Source: Clostridia bacterium
GTDB taxonomy: Bacteria > Bacillota > Clostridia > JAAYHZ01
Assembly: GCA_050950825.1 (NCBI GenBank)
Contig: JBMNIH010000004.1
Coordinates: 416,001-480,000, forward strand
Reading direction: 5' to 3'
Length of the DNA: 64,000 bases
The notes beneath the pieces were generated by a model that was not told the DNA's origin, made no database searches, and worked only from the letters and a program-made list of their open reading frames with translations. The position numbers were made by a program, and so were the translations under genes. Of this stretch, positions 40,046 through 47,786 are shown piece after piece (the first letter of the stretch is position 1; each line of letters starts with the position of its first letter).

Positions 40046-41485
40046 TTAAGCTGCTTGGTGCTCCAAAATATAGTACTGTGCCATGTCAAGCAACTCCAAC
40101 CATTTGGCTGGCATATTAGGGAGCTTCGTAACTCCCGGGATATTGACAGGAACTCTATAACCCAGAGATTTATGTGGTCTTAAGAAATTATGCCAAGTCG
40201 TAAATAGCGTTAAATAGTTTTGGCAGTTATCAAAGGCTCCAAAGCCATTGGTTGACTTGTAATAACGCTTTAAAGTACGGTTGAGTCGTTCAATAACCTG
40301 TTTAAGTGGTCTGTACTCTTCGGAAACGGGATCGTCATTGGTTAGCCCAATAACTTGTGTTACATCGAAGTGAATGCCGTGGCTCGCAAAGAAGTGCTGA
40401 GCCAGCAGATAGATGGGGTTTCCATCAAAGACCATGTTCAGTTTCTCAGGAATCTCCTTGTATTTTGATAAAGTATCATCAATAGCCTTGATAGCGGCAA
40501 CGGTGTCTCTGTTGGGAGAGACATGATGAGAGGTGATAATTTTCTTAATGGTATCAAAGATGAAGAAGACATAATGCCATTTACCATTGACTTTGACGTA
40601 GGTTTCATCGCCACAGATAGAGCTGGTCAATGGATAGTCATAGTTATCCACAAAAGGTTTGAGTAGCATTGCTGCAGCGTTGCCATAGTTGATGACAGTC
40701 TGATGGGAGATGTTAACTCCATGGATATCCCGCATGATGGATGCAACCATTCTTGAGCTCATGCCATAGTTTACGTAGTAAGAGAGAATTAACCCTAAGG
40801 TATAGGGTGAGGAATGGATTTTGGAAAGATCCACATCAGGCATTACAGGTGATTCTTTTGATAATGGTTTAAGCTTGATTGTAAATTCCCTGTGTATGTA
40901 GTGGAGTTTGAACGCCTGTGGATCTGCTATATAGCGATTACGTTCCTCGGAACTAAGTCTTTTGAGGTTGGATAAATAGAAGGAGCATTTGGGATTTTTG
41001 CATTTAAAAACATTAAAATCCTTACGCTTTTTGATTCTCTCCAGAACCCTGTTACAGTGAGGACAACGGAGGGCTACACTCTTTAAGTAGTCAGTACTGT
41101 TACCGAAGGTGAAGTCACACACTTTGCAAAGATATTGAGTATTTTTGGCTTTACCATTATTCCTGTAAATATAGGAATGAGGAGCACCACACTTGGGGCA
41201 AAGAATATCTTCTGAAACTGGAAGACAGCCTTTACGGCGTGAGACAGGCTTCAATGGCTTTCCATGCTCGGCAAAATATTCTTTAAGAAGTTGGAGGTAA
41301 TCAAGCCGTTCAAAAGATTCAACAACAGGCATAGAATCCACCTGAAGCTTCCGGTATTCCTTGCGTACAGGCTCGTCATAGAGTTTCTTCAGGGAATATT
41401 TGCCCAAGTTAATCCACATGAGATAAATAATAATTTTTAATTGTATTTGAATTGTTAAGCACAATGATAGTATAATATTACTCAA
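40046..41485 (-). CDS. DDE transposase (IS6-like) with N-terminal zinc ribbons
   Basis: CPKC/CKVC/CPHC/CKNPKC, DETYVKVNGKWHY, VFDG, IERLNRTLK, RPH. TTG start with AGGAG RBS. Confidence 0.85.
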   Translation of the reverse strand: MSNIILSLCLTIQIQLKIIIYLMWINLGKYSLKKLYDEPVRKEYRKLQVDSMPVVESFERLDYLQLLKEYFAEHGKPLKPVSRRKGCLPVSEDILCPKCGAPHSYIYRNNGKAKNTQYLCKVCDFTFGNSTDYLKSVALRCPHCNRVLERIKKRKDFNVFKCKNPKCSFYLSNLKRLSSEERNRYIADPQAFKLHYIHREFTIKLKPLSKESPVMPDVDLSKIHSSPYTLGLILSYYVNYGMSSRMVASIMRDIHGVNISHQTVINYGNAAAMLLKPFVDNYDYPLTSSICGDETYVKVNGKWHYVFFIFDTIKKIITSHHVSPNRDTVAAIKAIDDTLSKYKEIPEKLNMVFDGNPIYLLAQHFFASHGIHFDVTQVIGLTNDDPVSEEYRPLKQVIERLNRTLKRYYKSTNGFGAFDNCQNYLTLFTTWHNFLRPHKSLGYRVPVNIPGVTKLPNMPAKWLELLDMAQYYILEHQAA

Positions 41486-41924: not shown

Positions 41925-44708
41925 GAGCTTCCCGCAAAGAGGCAGTTTTATGAATGGATGGGAGTGAGCGAAAACGATTTTTCCGACCTTATCGTAAAGG
42001 GCACCTATGAAAACGGCAAGGTGGTCAACCCCATGCCGCTTACGGCAAGCAATTTTACAATCGACAGGCGCCCCGGGGAAGACCGCAAGGTTACCATAGC
42101 GGTGGACAATGAAAAGGTTTCGTTCACGATTGATATAGAACCTCGAAAGGTGGTAGCACTGGAACTCCTTTCACCGCCTGATGTAATCAATTATTATGTG
42201 GGAGAATCCTTCAACAAAATAGGCATGGCAGTAAGATACCGTTTCAACTCAGGGGAAACGGTAGATATGATGGACCTCTACCTGGATGACAGCTGTTTTA
42301 GCGGCTTTGACAGCAGGACGCCGGTAATGTGCCAGATAGTTACCTACAGGGTGGATGACGCATCCGTAAGCTTTACTGTCAATGTCCAGGAGTATAAGCT
42401 GATGGGCTTGAGGATCGACAGATTACCCTACAGGGAATGGTTTTACCAGTATGAAGAGCTCAGTTTGGAGGGTATGAAGATTACCGGCCTCATGCCCTAT
42501 GGCGAGGAAAGAGATATGGAGTATGTCCTTTGGGAAATTTCCGGCTTTGACAGCCGCAAGCCGGTACAGGACCAGGAGGTGACCATTCGGATAGAGGACC
42601 GGACCGTCTCCTTCACAGTGGATATTCTGCCCCCGGTGGAAGTCAAAAGCCTGACGTTCAGGGATACGATTAAAGAAGAGTATCTGCTGGGCGAGTCTTT
42701 GGATATGATGTATCATGACTTGGGCGCCACATATACCGGATATGCTTACAACCCTGTCACTAATAATGTGGAACTGAGGGAATTTGGCGTCAATATTTGG
42801 CCTACGGCGGAAGAAATCAGCGGCTTTGACAGCAGCCAGCCTCAAGACAACCAGGTATTGTCCTTTACCTTCGGAGGATTGACAGCGACCCAAACAATAG
42901 ATATCGTGGAGCCGGAGCTTTTAAGCCTCCGTGTCATACCCTCCAAGCCCACCTATTATACGGGGGATGTGCTGAAACCCGAGGAGCTGACGGTACTTTG
43001 TACCTATGAAAACGGATATATACGCACCATGCCGGCCGGTTCCTATCTCATCAGCGGATTTGACAGCACAAAGCCTGTTCAGGATCAGAGGGTTACGGTA
43101 TCTTACAAGGGTCAATCGGATTCCTTCTTCATACAGGTACTGCCCCTTGAGTTGAAGAGCATCAGCGTCAATCCGGGGCTGACGAATTATTACCTTGGGG
43201 AACAGTTTAATCGATCGATGCTGAGGGTAAGCGCCCACTACAACAGTGGTGCAATAAAAGCAGTGTCTCCCGAACTGGTGCAAATCAGCGGCTTTGACAG
43301 CAGCAGGGAAGCGACGGGGCAGGAGGTTGTCGTAAGCTATCAGGGCAAGCAGGACAGTTTCCTGGTGAATATTTTAAGCGGTACTCGCCCTGACGAGCCC
43401 GGGGAAGAGCCCGGCAACGATCCTGGAGAAGAACCCGGTGGAGAGCCCGGCGAAGAACCCGGTGACAAACCTGGCGATGAAACGGGTGATGAACCTGGTG
43501 ACGCCGAGGACACAACAACTACAACGCCTTCCGGTAGTGAAAACACCCTGTCCGTCACGCCCAGCCTGGATAAAGACACCGGAAAGGCAATCGCAGCGGT
43601 TGAAGAGACGAAACTTCAGGAAGCTTTCGACAAGCTGGATGAAGATGAAGAGGGTGTCAGGAAGATATCTATAGAAATATCCACGGTGGAAGAGGCAAAG
43701 GCTTATGTGGCGGAACTGCCATCCGGCTTCTTAACCGAAAAGGGAGCGGAAATACAGCTGGAGATAAAGACCGGTGTAGGAACGGTTACTGTTCCGGGCA
43801 ACATGCTGGCCAATATTCCGGAGACTTTTGGGAAAACAGCCGGTATCACCATCGGCCGGGGCGACAAGTCAGCCTTACCGGAGGAAGTACAGGAAGCTAT
43901 TGGCGACAGGCCTATTATCCGGCTCGCCCTGACCCTGGATGGAGAGCAAGTCAACTGGAACAACCCGGGCGCGCCGGTGACGGTGAGTATTCCTTATACA
44001 CCGACGGAGGAAGAACTTAAGAACCCCGAAAGCATTGTCATCCGGTACATTGACGGCAGCGGCAATGTAATTTCGGTGCCCAACGGGCGCTACGACCCCG
44101 AATCCGGAACCGTCACCTTCACCACCACTCATTTCAGCTATTACGCCGTAAGCTTCAAGCCGGTCAGCTTTAAGGACGTGCCGGGGGATGCGTGGTATGC
44201 GAAGGCGGTTTCCTTCATCGCTGCAAGGGAGATTACCCTCGGCACGGGAGGCGGCAATTTCAGCCCGGAAGATAAGCTCACCAGGGGACAATTCATCGTC
44301 ATGATGATGAGAGCCTATGGTATAGCCCCCGATGAAGACCCTAAGGACAACTTCAAAGATGCGGGCAACACCTGGTATACCGGGTATCTGGCTGCGGCCA
44401 AGAGGCTTGGCATATCGGCGGGCGTGGGCAACAACTTATTCGCACCGGAAAATGCCATCACCCGCCAGGAGATGTTTACCCTTTTATACAACGGGTTGAA
44501 AGTCATAGAGAAGCTACCGCGGGGCAATTCCGGTAAAACCCTTTCCGACTTCAGCGATGCCGATGAGATTGCTCCCTGGGCGATGGATGCCATGAAGCTC
44601 CTGGTGGAAACCGGCATGGTGAGTGGCAGCGGAAACAAGCTTTCACCGAAGGATACCACGACCAGGGCGCAGATGGCTCAGGTATTTTACAACCTGCTTT
44701 CAAGATAA
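41925..44708 (+). pseudogene. 5'-truncated surface protein: bacterial Ig-like repeats plus three SLH domains
   Basis: Five SGFDS repeats, EPG linker, TTHFSYY, SLH motifs (TRGQF, TRQEM, TRAQMA). The frame is open to the IS end, with no signal peptide or RBS. Confidence 0.8.
43392..43499 (+). repeat. Nine degenerate 12-bp coding tandem repeats (xEPG linker)
   Basis: GAAGAACCCGGT-like units encoding DEPG EEPG NDPG etc. Confidence 0.8.
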
Positions 44709-45116: not shown

Positions 45117-45389
45117 ATTGATCCGGATTATATAACCAATAGGCACCGTAATCTGCTAAAAAAAGCCGGGTTACCCCCTATCAGATTCCACGACCTGAGA
45201 CATTCCTGCGTAGGTTTGATAATGGCAAATGAAGTACCTATGGAGCGTATCAGAGATTGGGTTGGTCATAGCGACATCCGGACAACGGTTAACATCTATG
45301 GGCATCCGGAATACCAATCAAAGAAAATGACAGCAAAGATTATCGAAAAGTCTTTACCTCTTAAAAAGGTAGGAGCTGCTAATCTTTAG
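45117..45389 (+). pseudogene. C-terminal fragment of a tyrosine integrase
   Basis: Manual translation IRFHDLRHS..WVGHSDIRTTVNIYGH, with no start, ending 19 bp from the tRNA 3' end. Confidence 0.88.
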
Positions 45390-45408: not shown

Positions 45409-45496
45409 TGGCGGAGGGTTAGGGATTTGAACCCTAGATACCTTGCGGTACACTGGTTTTCGAGACCAGCTCCTTCAGCCTCTCGGACAACCCTCC
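45409..45496 (-). tRNA. tRNA-Ser (anticodon CGA)
   Basis: GGAGGGT/ACCCTCC acceptor stem, CTGGT-CTCGAAA-ACCAG anticodon arm, long variable arm, GTTCAAATC T-loop, GCCA end. Confidence 0.95.
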
Positions 45497-45668: not shown

Positions 45669-46766
45669 TTACTTTTTCGATACATATTCATTCCCTCGAA
45701 TATAAAAACGCCAAGGATAGTCCGCCGCCTCTTCCGCATAATCGATATTGATTCTTTTCGTGGTAACAATGTCCGGGGGCTTGAATTTATGGGGACGAGC
45801 AATGTAAATCTCGTCTTTCGTAAGATCCGTCCCGTTGTGTTCCTTCGTAAGCCCCAAAGCCATACACAATTTTCCGGGACCGTTGGTCAAACCGATCCTT
45901 TTTTTCTTGTCCAGTTTTTCGTAAGGCTCGCCGTAGCGGAGCAAGGACATGGTATTCAACCCCTCAACGGGTTCTACCGCACGTATCAACACGGCGGAAG
46001 GGATTCCTTCCGGACGAGTGACAATATTCAAGCAATAATACATCCCGTAAATGAGGTAAATGTAAGCACGGCCGGGAGGTCCGTACATGACCTCGGTACG
46101 GGGTGTACGCGTATCGTTGTACGTGTGGGAGCCCTTGTCCTCAATTCCGCAGTACGCCTCCGTTTCTACAATCCTTACCGTGAGACGCTCTCCGTTGTAA
46201 TTTCGAATAATGTAAGCACCTAGAAGCGCTTTTGAAAGGTGAACCGTATCGTTGTCAAAGTACAGCTCTGAAAGCTTATACACATTCGTACCGTCGCTTA
46301 AAGAAAATTTCGTTCGGACTTCTTGAAAGAACCCGGTTAAAAGCTTTCGTGATTCTTCTTCCAAAAGAGGAAAGAAGTATTGCGTTTTTCGGTTCCCGAA
46401 ATGCCGGTCCAGTAAATCCGCTTTCGTCGTAACGGCACCGGCGGTTTCGTCCGGAGCACCGAAATAAAGCTTTCCTATACGGGACTGCATGATGGCGCCG
46501 GCACACATGGGGCAAGGCTCCAATGTGACATACATCTCGCATTCATGCAAAGATCGATAGCCTAAAGCGGCGCAAGCCGCTTCAATGGCATTGATCTCTG
46601 CATGACGCACCGGATTGCCGGATTGCTCCGTTGTGTTATGGGCTCTTGCAATAATGGTGTCGTTACGGACAATAACTGCTCCTACCGGAATTTCGCCAAT
46701 GCTGTATGCTTTTTTGGCTTCCAATAGCGCTTCCGCCATATATTTTATTTCTTTGGTCATGATCAC
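45669..46766 (-). CDS. tadA: Fusion: TadA tRNA adenosine deaminase plus AAG/MPG-family 3-methyladenine/hypoxanthine DNA glycosylase
   Basis: EIPVGAV, HAE, TLEPCPMC (aa 1-152), then IVETEAY, YGMYYCLN, AVLIRA, GPGKLC, PWRF, in one frame. Confidence 0.85.
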   Translation of the reverse strand: MIMTKEIKYMAEALLEAKKAYSIGEIPVGAVIVRNDTIIARAHNTTEQSGNPVRHAEINAIEAACAALGYRSLHECEMYVTLEPCPMCAGAIMQSRIGKLYFGAPDETAGAVTTKADLLDRHFGNRKTQYFFPLLEEESRKLLTGFFQEVRTKFSLSDGTNVYKLSELYFDNDTVHLSKALLGAYIIRNYNGERLTVRIVETEAYCGIEDKGSHTYNDTRTPRTEVMYGPPGRAYIYLIYGMYYCLNIVTRPEGIPSAVLIRAVEPVEGLNTMSLLRYGEPYEKLDKKKRIGLTNGPGKLCMALGLTKEHNGTDLTKDEIYIARPHKFKPPDIVTTKRINIDYAEEAADYPWRFYIRGNEYVSKK

Positions 46767-46799: not shown

Positions 46800-47786
46800 T
46801 TATCGTAAACTCGGTATGTATTTTTTCTCTCCGTCTTTTGCCGATTCGGCGGCCAAAAGCGTGGCAATAGCCGACATTCCGCCGTCCCAAGCGGGAACGG
46901 CACATTCGATTCCCTTCGTAATACAGTCTAAGAAATGGTCGACCTCCGGCCCGTAGGGATGAGAAGGTATAAACAGCTCGCTCGGCAAATCGATCCACAT
47001 GCTGCCTAAAGCATCGATGCAGATTTTTCTTTGCACCAAGGAAGCCTTTGTTCCGTAAATTTTCAGGTTATACATATCCGGACAAGGTCCGGGAGACCCG
47101 TAAAGGCAGGTCACTTTTCCTATGGCTCCGCTTTTGAATTTGTAGGTGGCGACGATGGATGTTTCTTCACGCATTTCCTTGTATGTGATGTGGTTGGAAA
47201 TGGCATTGACCTCCGTAACTTCTCCCGCATACCATCTCATAAGATCCAAAGGATGGCAGCCGCCGCCTACCATGGGAATTTCGTCGGTAACCTTCCACTT
47301 TTCCATAAAGTATTGGTATCTTAAGTCGTGAATATAGTCGGCTTCCAAATATGCGATTTCACCGAAGAACCCGGAGTCCACCAACCGTTTAATGGCGGCG
47401 TATTGTCTGACAAATCGCAAGACTTGCCCTACTTGGCTGACGAGATTCGGATGCTTTTCCGCTTCCTGAACCATCTCCAAAACGTCTTCGATCCTGTTGG
47501 CCATGGGTTTTTCCACGAAAACATGCTTGCCTTTCTTCAAAGATAAAAGAAACGGTTCTTTGTGGGCCGAATCCCCCGTGTGAATCGATACGGCATCCAG
47601 CTCCGGTATATCCAAAACGGAATAATCCGTGTAAACGGCCGCATGGAATTTTTCACCGGCGTATTTCGCTCTTTCTTGGTCAATATCGCATACGGCAATC
47701 AGTCGGCTTTTCGGATTTTTAGCATACTCCTCGCAAAAAGCCAAACCGTTATGCCCCAATCCGATTACGGCAACATTAACAGTCAT
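46800..47786 (-). CDS. Gfo/Idh/MocA family oxidoreductase
   Basis: VIGLG, GKHVFVEKPMA, GCHPLD. Confidence 0.9.
   Translation of the reverse strand: MTVNVAVIGLGHNGLAFCEEYAKNPKSRLIAVCDIDQERAKYAGEKFHAAVYTDYSVLDIPELDAVSIHTGDSAHKEPFLLSLKKGKHVFVEKPMANRIEDVLEMVQEAEKHPNLVSQVGQVLRFVRQYAAIKRLVDSGFFGEIAYLEADYIHDLRYQYFMEKWKVTDEIPMVGGGCHPLDLMRWYAGEVTEVNAISNHITYKEMREETSIVATYKFKSGAIGKVTCLYGSPGPCPDMYNLKIYGTKASLVQRKICIDALGSMWIDLPSELFIPSHPYGPEVDHFLDCITKGIECAVPAWDGGMSAIATLLAAESAKDGEKKYIPSLR

What the first reader, a model, noticed from the sequence alone, without database searches (positions are those of the whole stretch)
45669..46766. Natural fusion of TadA adenosine deaminase to an AAG/MPG DNA glycosylase
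Seen: an intact-looking TadA domain (HAE, PCxxC) joined in frame through a ~10-aa linker to an intact-looking AAG/MPG domain (ETEAY, YGMY, GPGKL). Known: TadA makes inosine (A34 of tRNA-Arg); AAG-family enzymes excise hypoxanthine from DNA; engineered adenine transversion base editors combine evolved TadA with MPG/AAG. Inference: a maker and a remover of deaminated adenine in one chain, either self-policing of off-target DNA deamination or a coupled deaminate-and-excise activity. Position next to tRNA-Ser suggests the housekeeping tadA. Caveat: deleting one base in the short run at 46300-46302 would put TAA in frame and leave a GTG at 46283 (weak RBS) for a separate glycosylase.
Basis: partly seen in the sequence, partly recalled or inferred. 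Interest (0 to 1): 0.85.

Follow-up and report, generated by a model that had tools for sequence, protein, structure and literature searches.

The report
Natural TadA–AAG fusion enzyme gene
One intact gene in an uncultured anaerobic-digester Clostridia bacterium joins the essential tRNA adenosine deaminase TadA to an AAG-type DNA repair glycosylase; the fusion is real, conserved and apparently unstudied, but most likely just carries two ordinary housekeeping activities.

Summary
Window 45669-46766 (-) is one 365-aa ORF with a complete TadA domain (res 3-151), a ~12-aa linker and a complete AAG/Mpg glycosylase domain (res 164-365).

It is not a frameshift artefact. Contigs of 4 runs from 4 studies cover the junction with no difference. 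All 3 genomes of the family carry the fusion at 73-100% identity. Both halves and the linker are under purifying selection.

It is the genome's only good TadA match and only AAG match, and the genome has tRNA-Arg(ACG). It is therefore the housekeeping tadA.

A second, larger clade of at least 68 fusions exists in uncultured Clostridia. One has the JGI automatic name "TadA/3-methyladenine DNA glycosylase Mpg". Its AAG half has a separate origin (AU test p 1e-29), so AAG joined TadA's C-terminus twice.

All catalytic residues are kept in 73 of 73 fusions. Five literature searches found no paper on it.

The coupled "deaminate and repair" idea is untested. The DNA-activating D108N state is not present here. 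Verdict: a new domain architecture of known families, of moderate interest.

The parts
45669..46766 (-). Whole fusion CDS, 365 aa plus stop. GTG start at 46766; an alternative ATG at 46760 matches where the relatives start.
46314..46760 (-). TadA (tRNA adenosine-34 deaminase) domain, res 3-151. Contains HAE (55-57), PCPMC (84-88) and the complete C-terminal helix (136-150). The predicted homodimer interface lies in res 46-125.
   Evidence: Pfam and NCBIfam. End-to-end alignment to TadA structures 7cph, 2b3j and 1z3a. Fold TM 0.96-0.97 to 2b3j. Dimer prediction.
46278..46313 (-). Linker, res 152-163 (TKFSLSDGTNVY). Conserved in the family, and modelled with pLDDT about 96.
   Evidence: Identical in contigs of 4 runs.
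45672..46277 (-). AAG/Mpg (alkyladenine / 3-methyladenine / hypoxanthine DNA glycosylase) domain, res 164-365. Carries the equivalents of human E125, Y127, H136, Y159, Y162, N169 and R182 at E203, Y205, H214, Y237, Y240, N247 and R262.
   Evidence: Fold TM 0.86-0.89 to human AAG.
45409..45496 (-). tRNA-Ser(CGA) downstream on the same strand. This neighbour is conserved in the two related genomes.
46800..47786 (-). Upstream GFO/IDH/MocA-family oxidoreductase gene, 33 nt from the fusion's start. This neighbour is conserved in G001 and G002. Co-transcription is likely but was not tested.

Best explanation
This is a genuine bifunctional housekeeping protein.

The N-terminal half is the organism's only TadA. 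It forms the usual TadA homodimer and converts A34 to inosine in tRNA-Arg(ACG). The genome needs this because it has no other tRNA for CGU, CGC or CGA.

The C-terminal half is a complete AAG-family monofunctional glycosylase. It flips out and excises hypoxanthine and alkylated purines from DNA, which starts base excision repair.

The two active sites most likely work independently, one on tRNA and one on DNA. The fusion mainly ties a repair enzyme to the constitutive expression of an essential gene and yields a dimer with two glycosylase lobes.

Shown by computation: single frame, domain identity, catalytic residues, sole-copy status, purifying selection, and conservation in the lineage.

Inferred: both enzyme activities, their independence, and the reason for the fusion.
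For: One ORF with two full-length domains.

TadA half:
- It aligns end to end with B. subtilis, S. aureus (RNA complex) and E. coli TadA.
- The model fits with TM 0.92-0.97.
- The Zn and catalytic residues H55, E57, C85 and C88 are kept in 73 of 73 fusions.

AAG half:
- It scores 144 bits to human AAG, with the equivalents of E125, Y127, H136, Y159, Y162, N169 and R182 kept in 73 of 73 fusions.
- Fold TM is 0.86-0.89.
- NF002001 scores above its cut-off.

Genome context:
- This gene is the best of 3 TadA-model matches. The others are a 47-bit deaminase of unknown type and a ComEB-like dCMP deaminase.
- It is the only Pur_DNA_glyco match.
- Among 53 tRNAs there is one tRNA-Arg(ACG) and no GCG or TCG Arg tRNA.
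- In G001 and G002 the fusion is likewise the only good TadA match.

Conservation:
- The fusion is present in 3 of 3 genomes of the family.
- pN is 0.12-0.23 in both halves and 0.06-0.19 in the linker, while pS is 0.64-0.88 in both halves and 0.42-0.92 over the 16 linker codons.
- The best stand-alone TadA is only 57% identical, so no split form turned up.

Structure:
- The homodimer model scores 0.64 against a best control of 0.00. Runs agree in at least 98% of contacts and the partner's pLDDT is at least 89. That mark was reached by 20 of 30 proteins solved as pairs and 1 of 23 solved as single chains.
- The interface is res 46-125 only, that is, the TadA domain. This pass may simply reflect likeness to solved TadA dimers.
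- The monomer model has pLDDT 95.8 and pTM 0.90.

Literature: B. subtilis Aag is described as a hypoxanthine-DNA glycosylase (PMC6364969, passages, citing its ref. 20).
Against: - No activity was measured.
- The TadA equivalog model scores below its cut-off (111 against 150 bits). In the control genomes, however, only 6 of the 12 that match reach the cut-off.
- AAG domains of two separate origins are attached to TadA's C-terminus. The linker is conserved and the two domains are modelled as one confident body (pTM 0.90). These points hint at more than co-expression.
- One ENA contig (P0007) carries the gene with several frame changes. I read it as a noisy assembly, but it is a discordant record.
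Confidence: 0.62

Rival explanations
1. Functional coupling through the shared base (self-policing). The TadA half occasionally deaminates adenines in single-stranded or hairpin DNA, and the tethered AAG half removes the resulting hypoxanthine on the spot. This would explain why selection joined AAG to TadA.
For: - AAG domains of two different origins are fused to TadA's C-terminus. Holding the two clades together costs 273.9 lnL, p-AU 1e-29.
- Among the best 150 of 1.84 billion cluster representatives, only these two clusters combine the domains.
- The linker is conserved and confidently modelled, and the whole model has pTM 0.90.
- Endonuclease V, the usual bacterial deoxyinosine repair enzyme, was not found in G000, G001 or G002. 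The AAG half is therefore the only recognised hypoxanthine-removal enzyme found.
Against: - The TadA half keeps A and D at the E. coli A106/D108-equivalent positions in 6 of 6 clade-1 proteins.
- Wild-type TadA is reported to have no detectable DNA activity (recalled, not read here).
- EndoV was also not found in 40 of 41 genomes of the class sample, so its absence is not specific to fusion carriers.
- tadA is not adjacent to aag in 22 of 22 stand-alone aag loci.
- AAG also fuses to GNAT and ThiS.
- The TadA-domain tree does not reject a single origin (p 0.398). The second event may therefore be a domain swap rather than an independent fusion.
Confidence: 0.22
2. The AAG domain has been recruited to RNA work. 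It would bind or check inosine-bearing tRNA, for example by holding the product or monitoring I34, rather than repairing DNA.
For: Both active sites recognise the same base, hypoxanthine. The modelled architecture is compact.
Against: - Every DNA-repair residue of AAG is kept in 73 of 73 fusions, including the equivalent of the DNA-intercalating tyrosine Y162 (role of Y162 from PMC4227769, passages).
- The AAG half nests among ordinary stand-alone AAGs on a branch of ordinary length.
- It is the genome's only AAG.
Confidence: 0.05
3. A programmed DNA 'deaminate-and-excise' enzyme, acting as a mutator or an anti-phage effector. This would be a natural counterpart of engineered adenine transversion base editors.
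For: It has the same two catalytic modules as the engineered TadA plus MPG/AAG editors (search listing and abstracts only).
Against: - It is the sole TadA, in a conserved housekeeping context beside tRNA-Ser.
- There is no targeting domain in its 365 aa.
- The D108-equivalent residue is in the wild-type state.
- No defence-gene neighbourhood was seen in the flanking genes scanned.
Confidence: 0.04
4. An assembly or sequencing artefact: two adjacent genes (tadA, aag) joined by a one-base error in the homopolymer run at 46296-46305.
For: - One deleted base there would create an in-frame TAA, with a GTG at 46283.
- One ENA contig (P0007) shows frame changes in this gene.
Against: - Contigs of 4 of 4 laid runs cross the junction with 0 differences. 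Two of these runs may be the source of the window, and two are 2017 RNA libraries.
- Relatives at 80%, 73% and 72-82% identity keep the frame.
- The linker has low pN.
- No stand-alone TadA above 57% identity was found.
- P0007 has several frame changes along the gene, not a single clean split.
Confidence: 0.01

Closest known systems
Bacterial TadA (tRNA adenosine(34) deaminase; structures 2B3J from S. aureus with RNA, 7CPH from B. subtilis, 1Z3A from E. coli)
   Same: - Full-length alignment including the C-terminal helix.
- HAE and PCxxC motifs.
- 44-48% identity, TM 0.92-0.97.
- Predicted homodimer through the same domain.
- Genomic place beside tRNA-Ser.

   Different: It carries a 214-residue C-terminal extension (linker plus AAG), where stand-alone TadAs end about 6 residues after the last helix. 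It scores below the NCBIfam equivalog cut-off.
AAG/MPG family (human AAG structures 1BNK, 1EWN, 3QI5; B. subtilis Aag, a hypoxanthine-DNA glycosylase)
   Same: - 40% identity to the human catalytic domain, TM 0.86-0.89.
- All active-site and intercalating residues are kept.
- 52-59% identity to stand-alone AAGs of about 203 aa from Clostridia, among which it nests in the tree.

   Different: It has no start of its own. Its first strand follows directly on the TadA linker.
Second natural TadA-AAG clade (P0018, P0130, P0318 and others; 305-361 aa; MAGs labelled Clostridia or Eubacteriales bacterium; one JGI name 'tRNA(Arg) A34 adenosine deaminase TadA/3-methyladenine DNA glycosylase Mpg')
   Same: Same domain order, a short linker of 4-20 aa in most members, and all catalytic residues kept.
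   Different: - Only 31-40% identity in the AAG half and 38-53% in the TadA half.
- Its AAG is of the short type (about 185 aa), lacks res 266-291 of the window protein, and has a separate origin.
- 10 of its 68 members carry N at the D108-equivalent position.
Engineered adenine transversion base editors (AYBE/AXBE-type: Cas9 nickase + evolved TadA-8e + engineered MPG/AAG)
   Same: A TadA-family deaminase and an AAG-family glycosylase in one polypeptide (search listing and abstracts only).
   Different: - The natural protein has no Cas or other targeting module.
- It keeps the wild-type A106/D108-equivalent residues rather than the DNA-activating substitutions listed for TadA*8.20 (PMC10188367, passage).
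- It serves as the cell's housekeeping TadA.

Membership tests
TadA (tRNA adenosine(34) deaminase) | CDA-fold zinc site and catalytic glutamate: H(A)E ... PCxxC | tested here: met
   HAE at 55-57 and PCPMC at 84-88. These residues are invariant in 73 of 73 fusions.
TadA (tRNA adenosine(34) deaminase) | Full TadA architecture, including the C-terminal helix used for anticodon-loop binding | tested here: met
   Aligned over res 3-153 to 7cph and 2b3j. TM 0.96-0.97 and rmsd 0.8-0.9 to the 2b3j RNA complex.
TadA (tRNA adenosine(34) deaminase) | Score over the NCBIfam equivalog cut-off (NF008113, 150 bits) | tested here: not met
   111 bits. The same model passes its cut-off in only 6 of the 12 control genomes that it matches, so the cut-off is strict for non-proteobacterial TadAs.
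TadA (tRNA adenosine(34) deaminase) | Substrate present and no alternative enzyme: tRNA-Arg(ACG) in the genome, and no second TadA | tested here: met
   One tRNA-Arg(ACG) and no GCG or TCG anticodon among 53 tRNAs. The other deaminase matches score 47 and 24 bits. The genome is 97% complete.
TadA (tRNA adenosine(34) deaminase) | Homodimer | tested here: inconclusive
   The model supports a dimer: score 0.64 against a best control of 0.00, with the interface at res 46-125. This is a prediction only and may reflect solved TadA dimers.
TadA (tRNA adenosine(34) deaminase) | A34-to-I34 activity on tRNA-Arg | not testable with these tools
   Needs an enzyme assay or tRNA sequencing.
AAG/MPG (Pur_DNA_glyco, PF02245) | Family model over its curated cut-off along the full length | tested here: met
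   PF02245 scores 223 bits (cut-off 27) over profile positions 3-180 of 181. NF002001 scores 279.5 bits against 272.
AAG/MPG (Pur_DNA_glyco, PF02245) | Catalytic and base-flipping residues, in human numbering: E125, Y127, H136, Y159, Y162, N169, R182. Their roles are recalled, except Y162, which was read in PMC4227769. | tested here: met
   E203, Y205, H214, Y237, Y240, N247 and R262 align to them. They are invariant in 73 of 73 fusions.
AAG/MPG (Pur_DNA_glyco, PF02245) | AAG fold | tested here: met
   TM 0.86-0.89 to 3qi5, 1ewn and 3uby, using a model with pLDDT 95.8.
AAG/MPG (Pur_DNA_glyco, PF02245) | Excision of hypoxanthine, 3-methyladenine or ethenoadenine from DNA | not testable with these tools
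   Needs a glycosylase assay.
Adenine transversion base-editor-like DNA deaminase plus glycosylase | TadA substitutions that confer DNA activity, for example D108N and A106V | tested here: not met
   A104 and D106 are in the wild-type state in 6 of 6 clade-1 proteins. The list of substitutions comes from a PMC10188367 passage.
Adenine transversion base-editor-like DNA deaminase plus glycosylase | A DNA-targeting module | tested here: not met
   Only the two catalytic domains are found in the 365 aa.

The most novel reading that the evidence does not exclude
The fusion is adaptive because the two halves act on the same base. The tethered AAG lobe removes hypoxanthine that the essential tRNA deaminase makes by accident in single-stranded or hairpin DNA, in a lineage where no endonuclease V was found. 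It would then be a natural 'deaminase with built-in repair', reached by recruiting AAG twice. It would also offer a compact natural TadA-AAG scaffold comparable to engineered adenine transversion editors.
Probability: 0.2. Interest if true: 0.8.

Novelty: new variant of a known kind. Interest (0 to 1): 0.5.

Why it matters
Both halves belong to well-known families. Their natural union has only automatic database names, and five full-text searches found no paper on it.

It shows that an essential tRNA-editing enzyme can carry a DNA repair glycosylase for the very base it produces, and that AAG was attached to TadA twice. If the link is functional, two things follow. Wild-type TadA would pose a measurable hypoxanthine burden on DNA. 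And nature would have built the same deaminase-plus-glycosylase pairing that base-editor engineers designed. A compact protein with a confidently modelled fixed domain arrangement could be a useful scaffold or comparison.

If the link is only co-expression, it is a tidy example of a repair gene riding on an essential gene.

Tried and rejected
1. Clade-2 genomic context. I wanted to know whether clade-2 fusions are the sole TadA of their genomes and whether tRNA-Ser is a neighbour. I could not obtain this.
- The metagenome-contig scan with P0018 kept 80 loci, all single-domain matches at 57% identity or less. L088, which looked longer, is a stand-alone TadA followed by a stop.
- A class-wide sample of 399 scored genomes held no clade-2 fusion.
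- Neither did 151 genomes of the order of G331.
- These are samples. The fusion was not found in those searched; it is not shown to be absent.

2. TadA-domain tree. The AU test for clade 1 and clade 2 as one clade was not rejected (dlnL 2.98, p 0.398). Whether the TadA halves share an origin is therefore open. That set also lacked stand-alone TadAs chosen for nearness to clade 2.

3. D108-equivalent position. I considered N at this position as a sign of DNA activity. It occurs in 10 of 68 clade-2 fusions. However, 48 of 126 stand-alone TadAs in my sample carry Q there, 3 carry E and 1 carries N. The position varies naturally, so I draw no inference from it.

4. Endonuclease V absence as a rationale. 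It was not found in G000-G002, but it was also not found in 40 of 41 class genomes. It is not specific to fusion carriers.

5. Odd proteins from the searches.
- P0008 (M56 peptidase N-terminus plus AAG C-terminus, 100% identical) is a join of two places 375 kb apart on contig C4. I treat it as a chimeric assembly, not a second architecture.
- P0007 is a version of the gene with several frame changes, from one ENA contig.
- Short AAG-only or TadA-only proteins 83-99% identical to P0018 (P0297, P0299, P0313, P0320, P0324, P0333, P0344) come from contigs of 728-2185 bases and start or stop inside a domain. I take them as cut ORFs but could not check the contigs.

6. Transcription. RNA-library contigs hold the gene, but contigs cannot show that it is transcribed.

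7. Tree caveats. The AAG tree used 90 rows sampled from 327 eligible rows (5 clade 1, 21 of 68 clade 2, 22 of 110, 22 of 114 and 20 of 30 stand-alone). The groups were named before the tree was built, but I had seen the tree before running the AU test. Five 'rep' rows have long branches.

8. Supplementary files of papers were not consulted.
Full report
**What is there.**
- Window 45669-46766 on the minus strand is a single 365-aa open frame.
- Pfam finds a deaminase domain (MafB19-deam 1.1e-34, dCMP_cyt_deam_1 2.2e-30) on residues 3-151. It finds Pur_DNA_glyco (1.9e-66, profile positions 3-180 of 181) on residues 170-359.
- NCBIfam's DNA-3-methyladenine glycosylase equivalog NF002001 scores 279.5 bits, above its cut-off of 272. 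The TadA equivalog NF008113 scores 111 bits, below its cut-off of 150. In the tool's control genomes that model reaches its cut-off in only 6 of the 12 it matches.
- tRNA-Ser(CGA) lies 172 nt downstream on the same strand.
- A GFO/IDH/MocA oxidoreductase gene ends 33 nt upstream.

**Is the fusion real?**
- The stretch is held by 20 listed runs from 17 studies of biogas fermenters, sludge and anaerobic digesters. Six of them are RNA libraries.
- I laid four runs from four studies. Contigs of all four cross 46280-46310 with 0 other letters and 0 gaps (records 1, 18, 9 and 3). Two of these runs may be the window's own source. The two 2017 RNA-library runs are not marked as a possible source.
- The window lies in a 3.55-Mb, 97%-complete genome (G000). 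All 3 genomes of its family carry the same fused frame at 100%, 80% and 73% identity. No genome labelled 'same order' appeared among the 40 relatives drawn.
- Four further metagenomic clusters at 72-82% identity are fused too.
- Between the three genomes, synonymous sites are saturated in both domains (pS 0.64-0.88; 0.42-0.92 over the 16 linker codons). pN is 0.13-0.23 in the TadA half, 0.12-0.16 in the AAG half and 0.06-0.19 in the linker.
- A search restricted to short proteins found no stand-alone TadA more than 57% identical. No split form of this lineage's gene turned up.
- One discordant record exists. P0007, from one ENA contig, has several frame changes along the gene. I read it as a noisy assembly.

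**Is it the housekeeping tadA?**
- In G000 the TadA model matches three places. The fusion scores 113 bits. A 216-aa deaminase of unknown type scores 47 bits. A ComEB-like dCMP deaminase scores 24 bits.
- Pur_DNA_glyco matches only the fusion.
- ARAGORN finds 53 tRNAs, with one tRNA-Arg(ACG) and no GCG or TCG arginine anticodon. Inosine-34 is therefore needed for decoding.
- In G001 and G002 the fusion is again the only good TadA match.
- The upstream oxidoreductase and a downstream tRNA-Ser(CGA) are conserved in those genomes.

**Are both halves intact?**
- The TadA half aligns from residue 3 to 153 with B. subtilis (7cph), S. aureus (2b3j, the RNA complex), A. aeolicus and E. coli TadA.
- The AAG half aligns with human AAG at 144 bits. 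E203, Y205, H214, Y237, Y240, N247 and R262 sit opposite human E125, Y127, H136, Y159, Y162, N169 and R182. The numbering was counted from the full-length chain 7xfh_K. The roles of these residues are recalled, except the intercalating Y162, which I read in passages of PMC4227769.
- In an alignment of 73 fusions these seven residues, and H55, E57, C85 and C88 of the deaminase, are invariant.
- An AlphaFold2 model built on 143 sequences has pLDDT 95.8 and pTM 0.90, with the linker at about 96.
- Foldseek gives TM 0.86-0.89 to human AAG and 0.92-0.97 to TadA structures. No PDB chain covers both halves.
- A two-copy model supports a homodimer. The score is 0.64 against a best control of 0.00. Runs agree in at least 98% of contacts and the partner's pLDDT is at least 89. 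The mark was reached by 20 of 30 proteins solved as pairs and 1 of 23 solved as single chains. The interface is confined to residues 46-125 of the TadA domain. This may merely recall solved TadA dimers.

**How common is the architecture?**
- In a full HMMER pass over 1.84 billion cluster representatives, the best 150 hits contain only two TadA-AAG clusters: the window's own and P0130. Ten of the longer hits were checked with Pfam. The other long proteins are AAG with unannotated extensions, ThiS-AAG, or tandem AAG.
- Searching with P0018 shows that this second cluster stands for a broad clade. At least 68 fused proteins of 305-361 aa, 44-100% identical to P0018, are among the proteins I fetched.
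- Their automatic names include 'tRNA adenosine(34) deaminase TadA [Clostridia bacterium]' and '[Eubacteriales bacterium]'. One JGI name is 'tRNA(Arg) A34 adenosine deaminase TadA/3-methyladenine DNA glycosylase Mpg'.
- The architecture is therefore already in public databases.
- Five full-text searches found no paper on a natural fusion.

**One origin or two?**
- The window's AAG half is 52-59% identical to stand-alone Clostridia AAGs of about 203 aa, but only 31-40% identical to the clade-2 AAG half. The clade-2 half lacks residues 266-291.
- In a 90-row tree, clade 1 is a supported group (SH-aLRT 100) nested among the 203-aa stand-alone AAGs. Clade 2 sits in a separate supported group (99) with short stand-alone AAGs of about 185 aa.
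- Forcing all fused AAGs together costs 273.9 log-likelihood units, p-AU 1e-29. I had seen the tree before running the test.
- For the TadA halves the same test is inconclusive (dlnL 2.98, p 0.398).
- So AAG was attached to TadA's C-terminus at least twice, either by two fusions or by one fusion followed by a swap of the AAG domain.

**What does it do?**
- The best-supported reading is a bifunctional housekeeping enzyme. One half is a dimeric TadA that makes I34 in tRNA-Arg(ACG). The other is an AAG-type glycosylase that excises hypoxanthine and alkylpurines from DNA.
- Bacterial Aag is described as a hypoxanthine-DNA glycosylase in B. subtilis (PMC6364969, passages, citing Ayala-Garcia 2016).
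- I put 0.62 on the two activities being catalytically independent, with the fusion serving co-expression.
- The attractive alternative, at 0.22, is that the AAG lobe polices hypoxanthine made by TadA in DNA.
- For the alternative: the double recruitment of AAG, the conserved linker, the compact model, and the absence of a detectable endonuclease V in G000-G002.
- Against the alternative:
  - Endonuclease V was not found in 40 of 41 genomes of the class sample either.
  - tadA and aag are not neighbours in 22 of 22 stand-alone aag loci, and are 4.4 kb apart in one more.
  - AAG also fuses to GNAT and ThiS.
  - The window's TadA keeps A104 and D106, the wild-type states of E. coli A106 and D108. 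These are among the sites substituted in DNA-active TadA*8.20 (PMC10188367, passage).
  - N at that site does occur in 10 of 68 clade-2 fusions. But Q, E or N occur in 52 of 126 stand-alone TadAs sampled, so the position is naturally variable.

**Comparison and verdict.**
- The protein passes the defining tests for both the TadA and AAG families that can be run in silico, apart from the strict TadA equivalog cut-off.
- It resembles engineered adenine transversion base editors only in pairing the two modules (listing and abstracts only). It lacks a targeting module and the DNA-activating substitutions.
- It is a new, unstudied domain architecture of two known families. It is conserved in one lineage of uncultured anaerobic-digester Clostridia; the related MAG L020 is titled 'uncultured Clostridiaceae bacterium'. 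A second, broader clade parallels it.
- Interest is moderate. It would be high only if the coupling proves real.

Noticed in passing
window 45216-45389 (+), between the SLH protein gene and tRNA-Ser: A 57-aa ORF whose sequence (…VGHSDIRTTVNIYGH…) looks like the C-terminal end of a tyrosine recombinase or integrase. It lies next to tRNA-Ser(CGA), and a DDE transposase gene lies at 40046-41485 (-). This may be a remnant of an element integrated at the tRNA. Pfam gave no hit for the 57-aa piece at E <= 0.001. The resemblance is recalled.
   Followed up: partly
L002:1216-1866 (-) (G000 contig C5): A 216-aa deaminase paralogue with HAE and PCxxC-like motifs. It matches TadA at 47 bits and an anti-phage dCTP deaminase model at 44 bits, and fits no family over its cut-off. 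No counterpart was seen in G001 or G002 with the TadA model.
   Followed up: partly
proteins P0353, P0357, P0359, P0360, P0362, P0375; P0135, P0126: Other natural AAG fusions exist. GNAT acetyltransferase plus AAG occurs in several clusters, one of them named Oscillospiraceae bacterium. There is also ThiS plus AAG (P0135) and a tandem double AAG of 475 aa (P0126).
   Followed up: no
protein P0008; G000 C4:86808-87392 and C4:461672-462208 (window 45672-46208): A 372-aa protein in the database joins the first 195 residues of a BlaR1-like M56 peptidase to the last 179 residues of this gene, both at 100% identity. The two sources are 375 kb apart on the contig. It is probably a chimeric contig from another assembly of the same organism.
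   Followed up: partly
G000-G040 (class sample): Endonuclease V (PF04493) was found in only 1 of 41 genomes of this class sample. An AAG match to the query protein was seen in only a handful: the family's 3 genomes plus G005, G009, G022 and G031, with a partial match in G011. How most of these genomes remove deoxyinosine is not obvious.
   Followed up: no
clade-2 fusions P0329, P0332, P0334, P0336-P0342: Ten clade-2 fusions carry N at the position equivalent to E. coli TadA D108, often with T, S or C at the A106 position. Many stand-alone TadAs carry Q there. This natural variation at a site important for engineered DNA activity may deserve a look.
   Followed up: partly
window 46491-46545: In all four laid runs, short high-depth pieces (up to 529x) from other contigs match only this stretch of 30-45 nt. 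It encodes the conserved LEPCPMCAGA motif, so the pieces are TadA genes of other community members and not variants of this gene.
   Followed up: yes
window 41958-44708 (+): A 916-aa surface protein with three Big_3 domains, a Pro/Glu/Gly-rich spacer and three C-terminal SLH domains.
   Followed up: no
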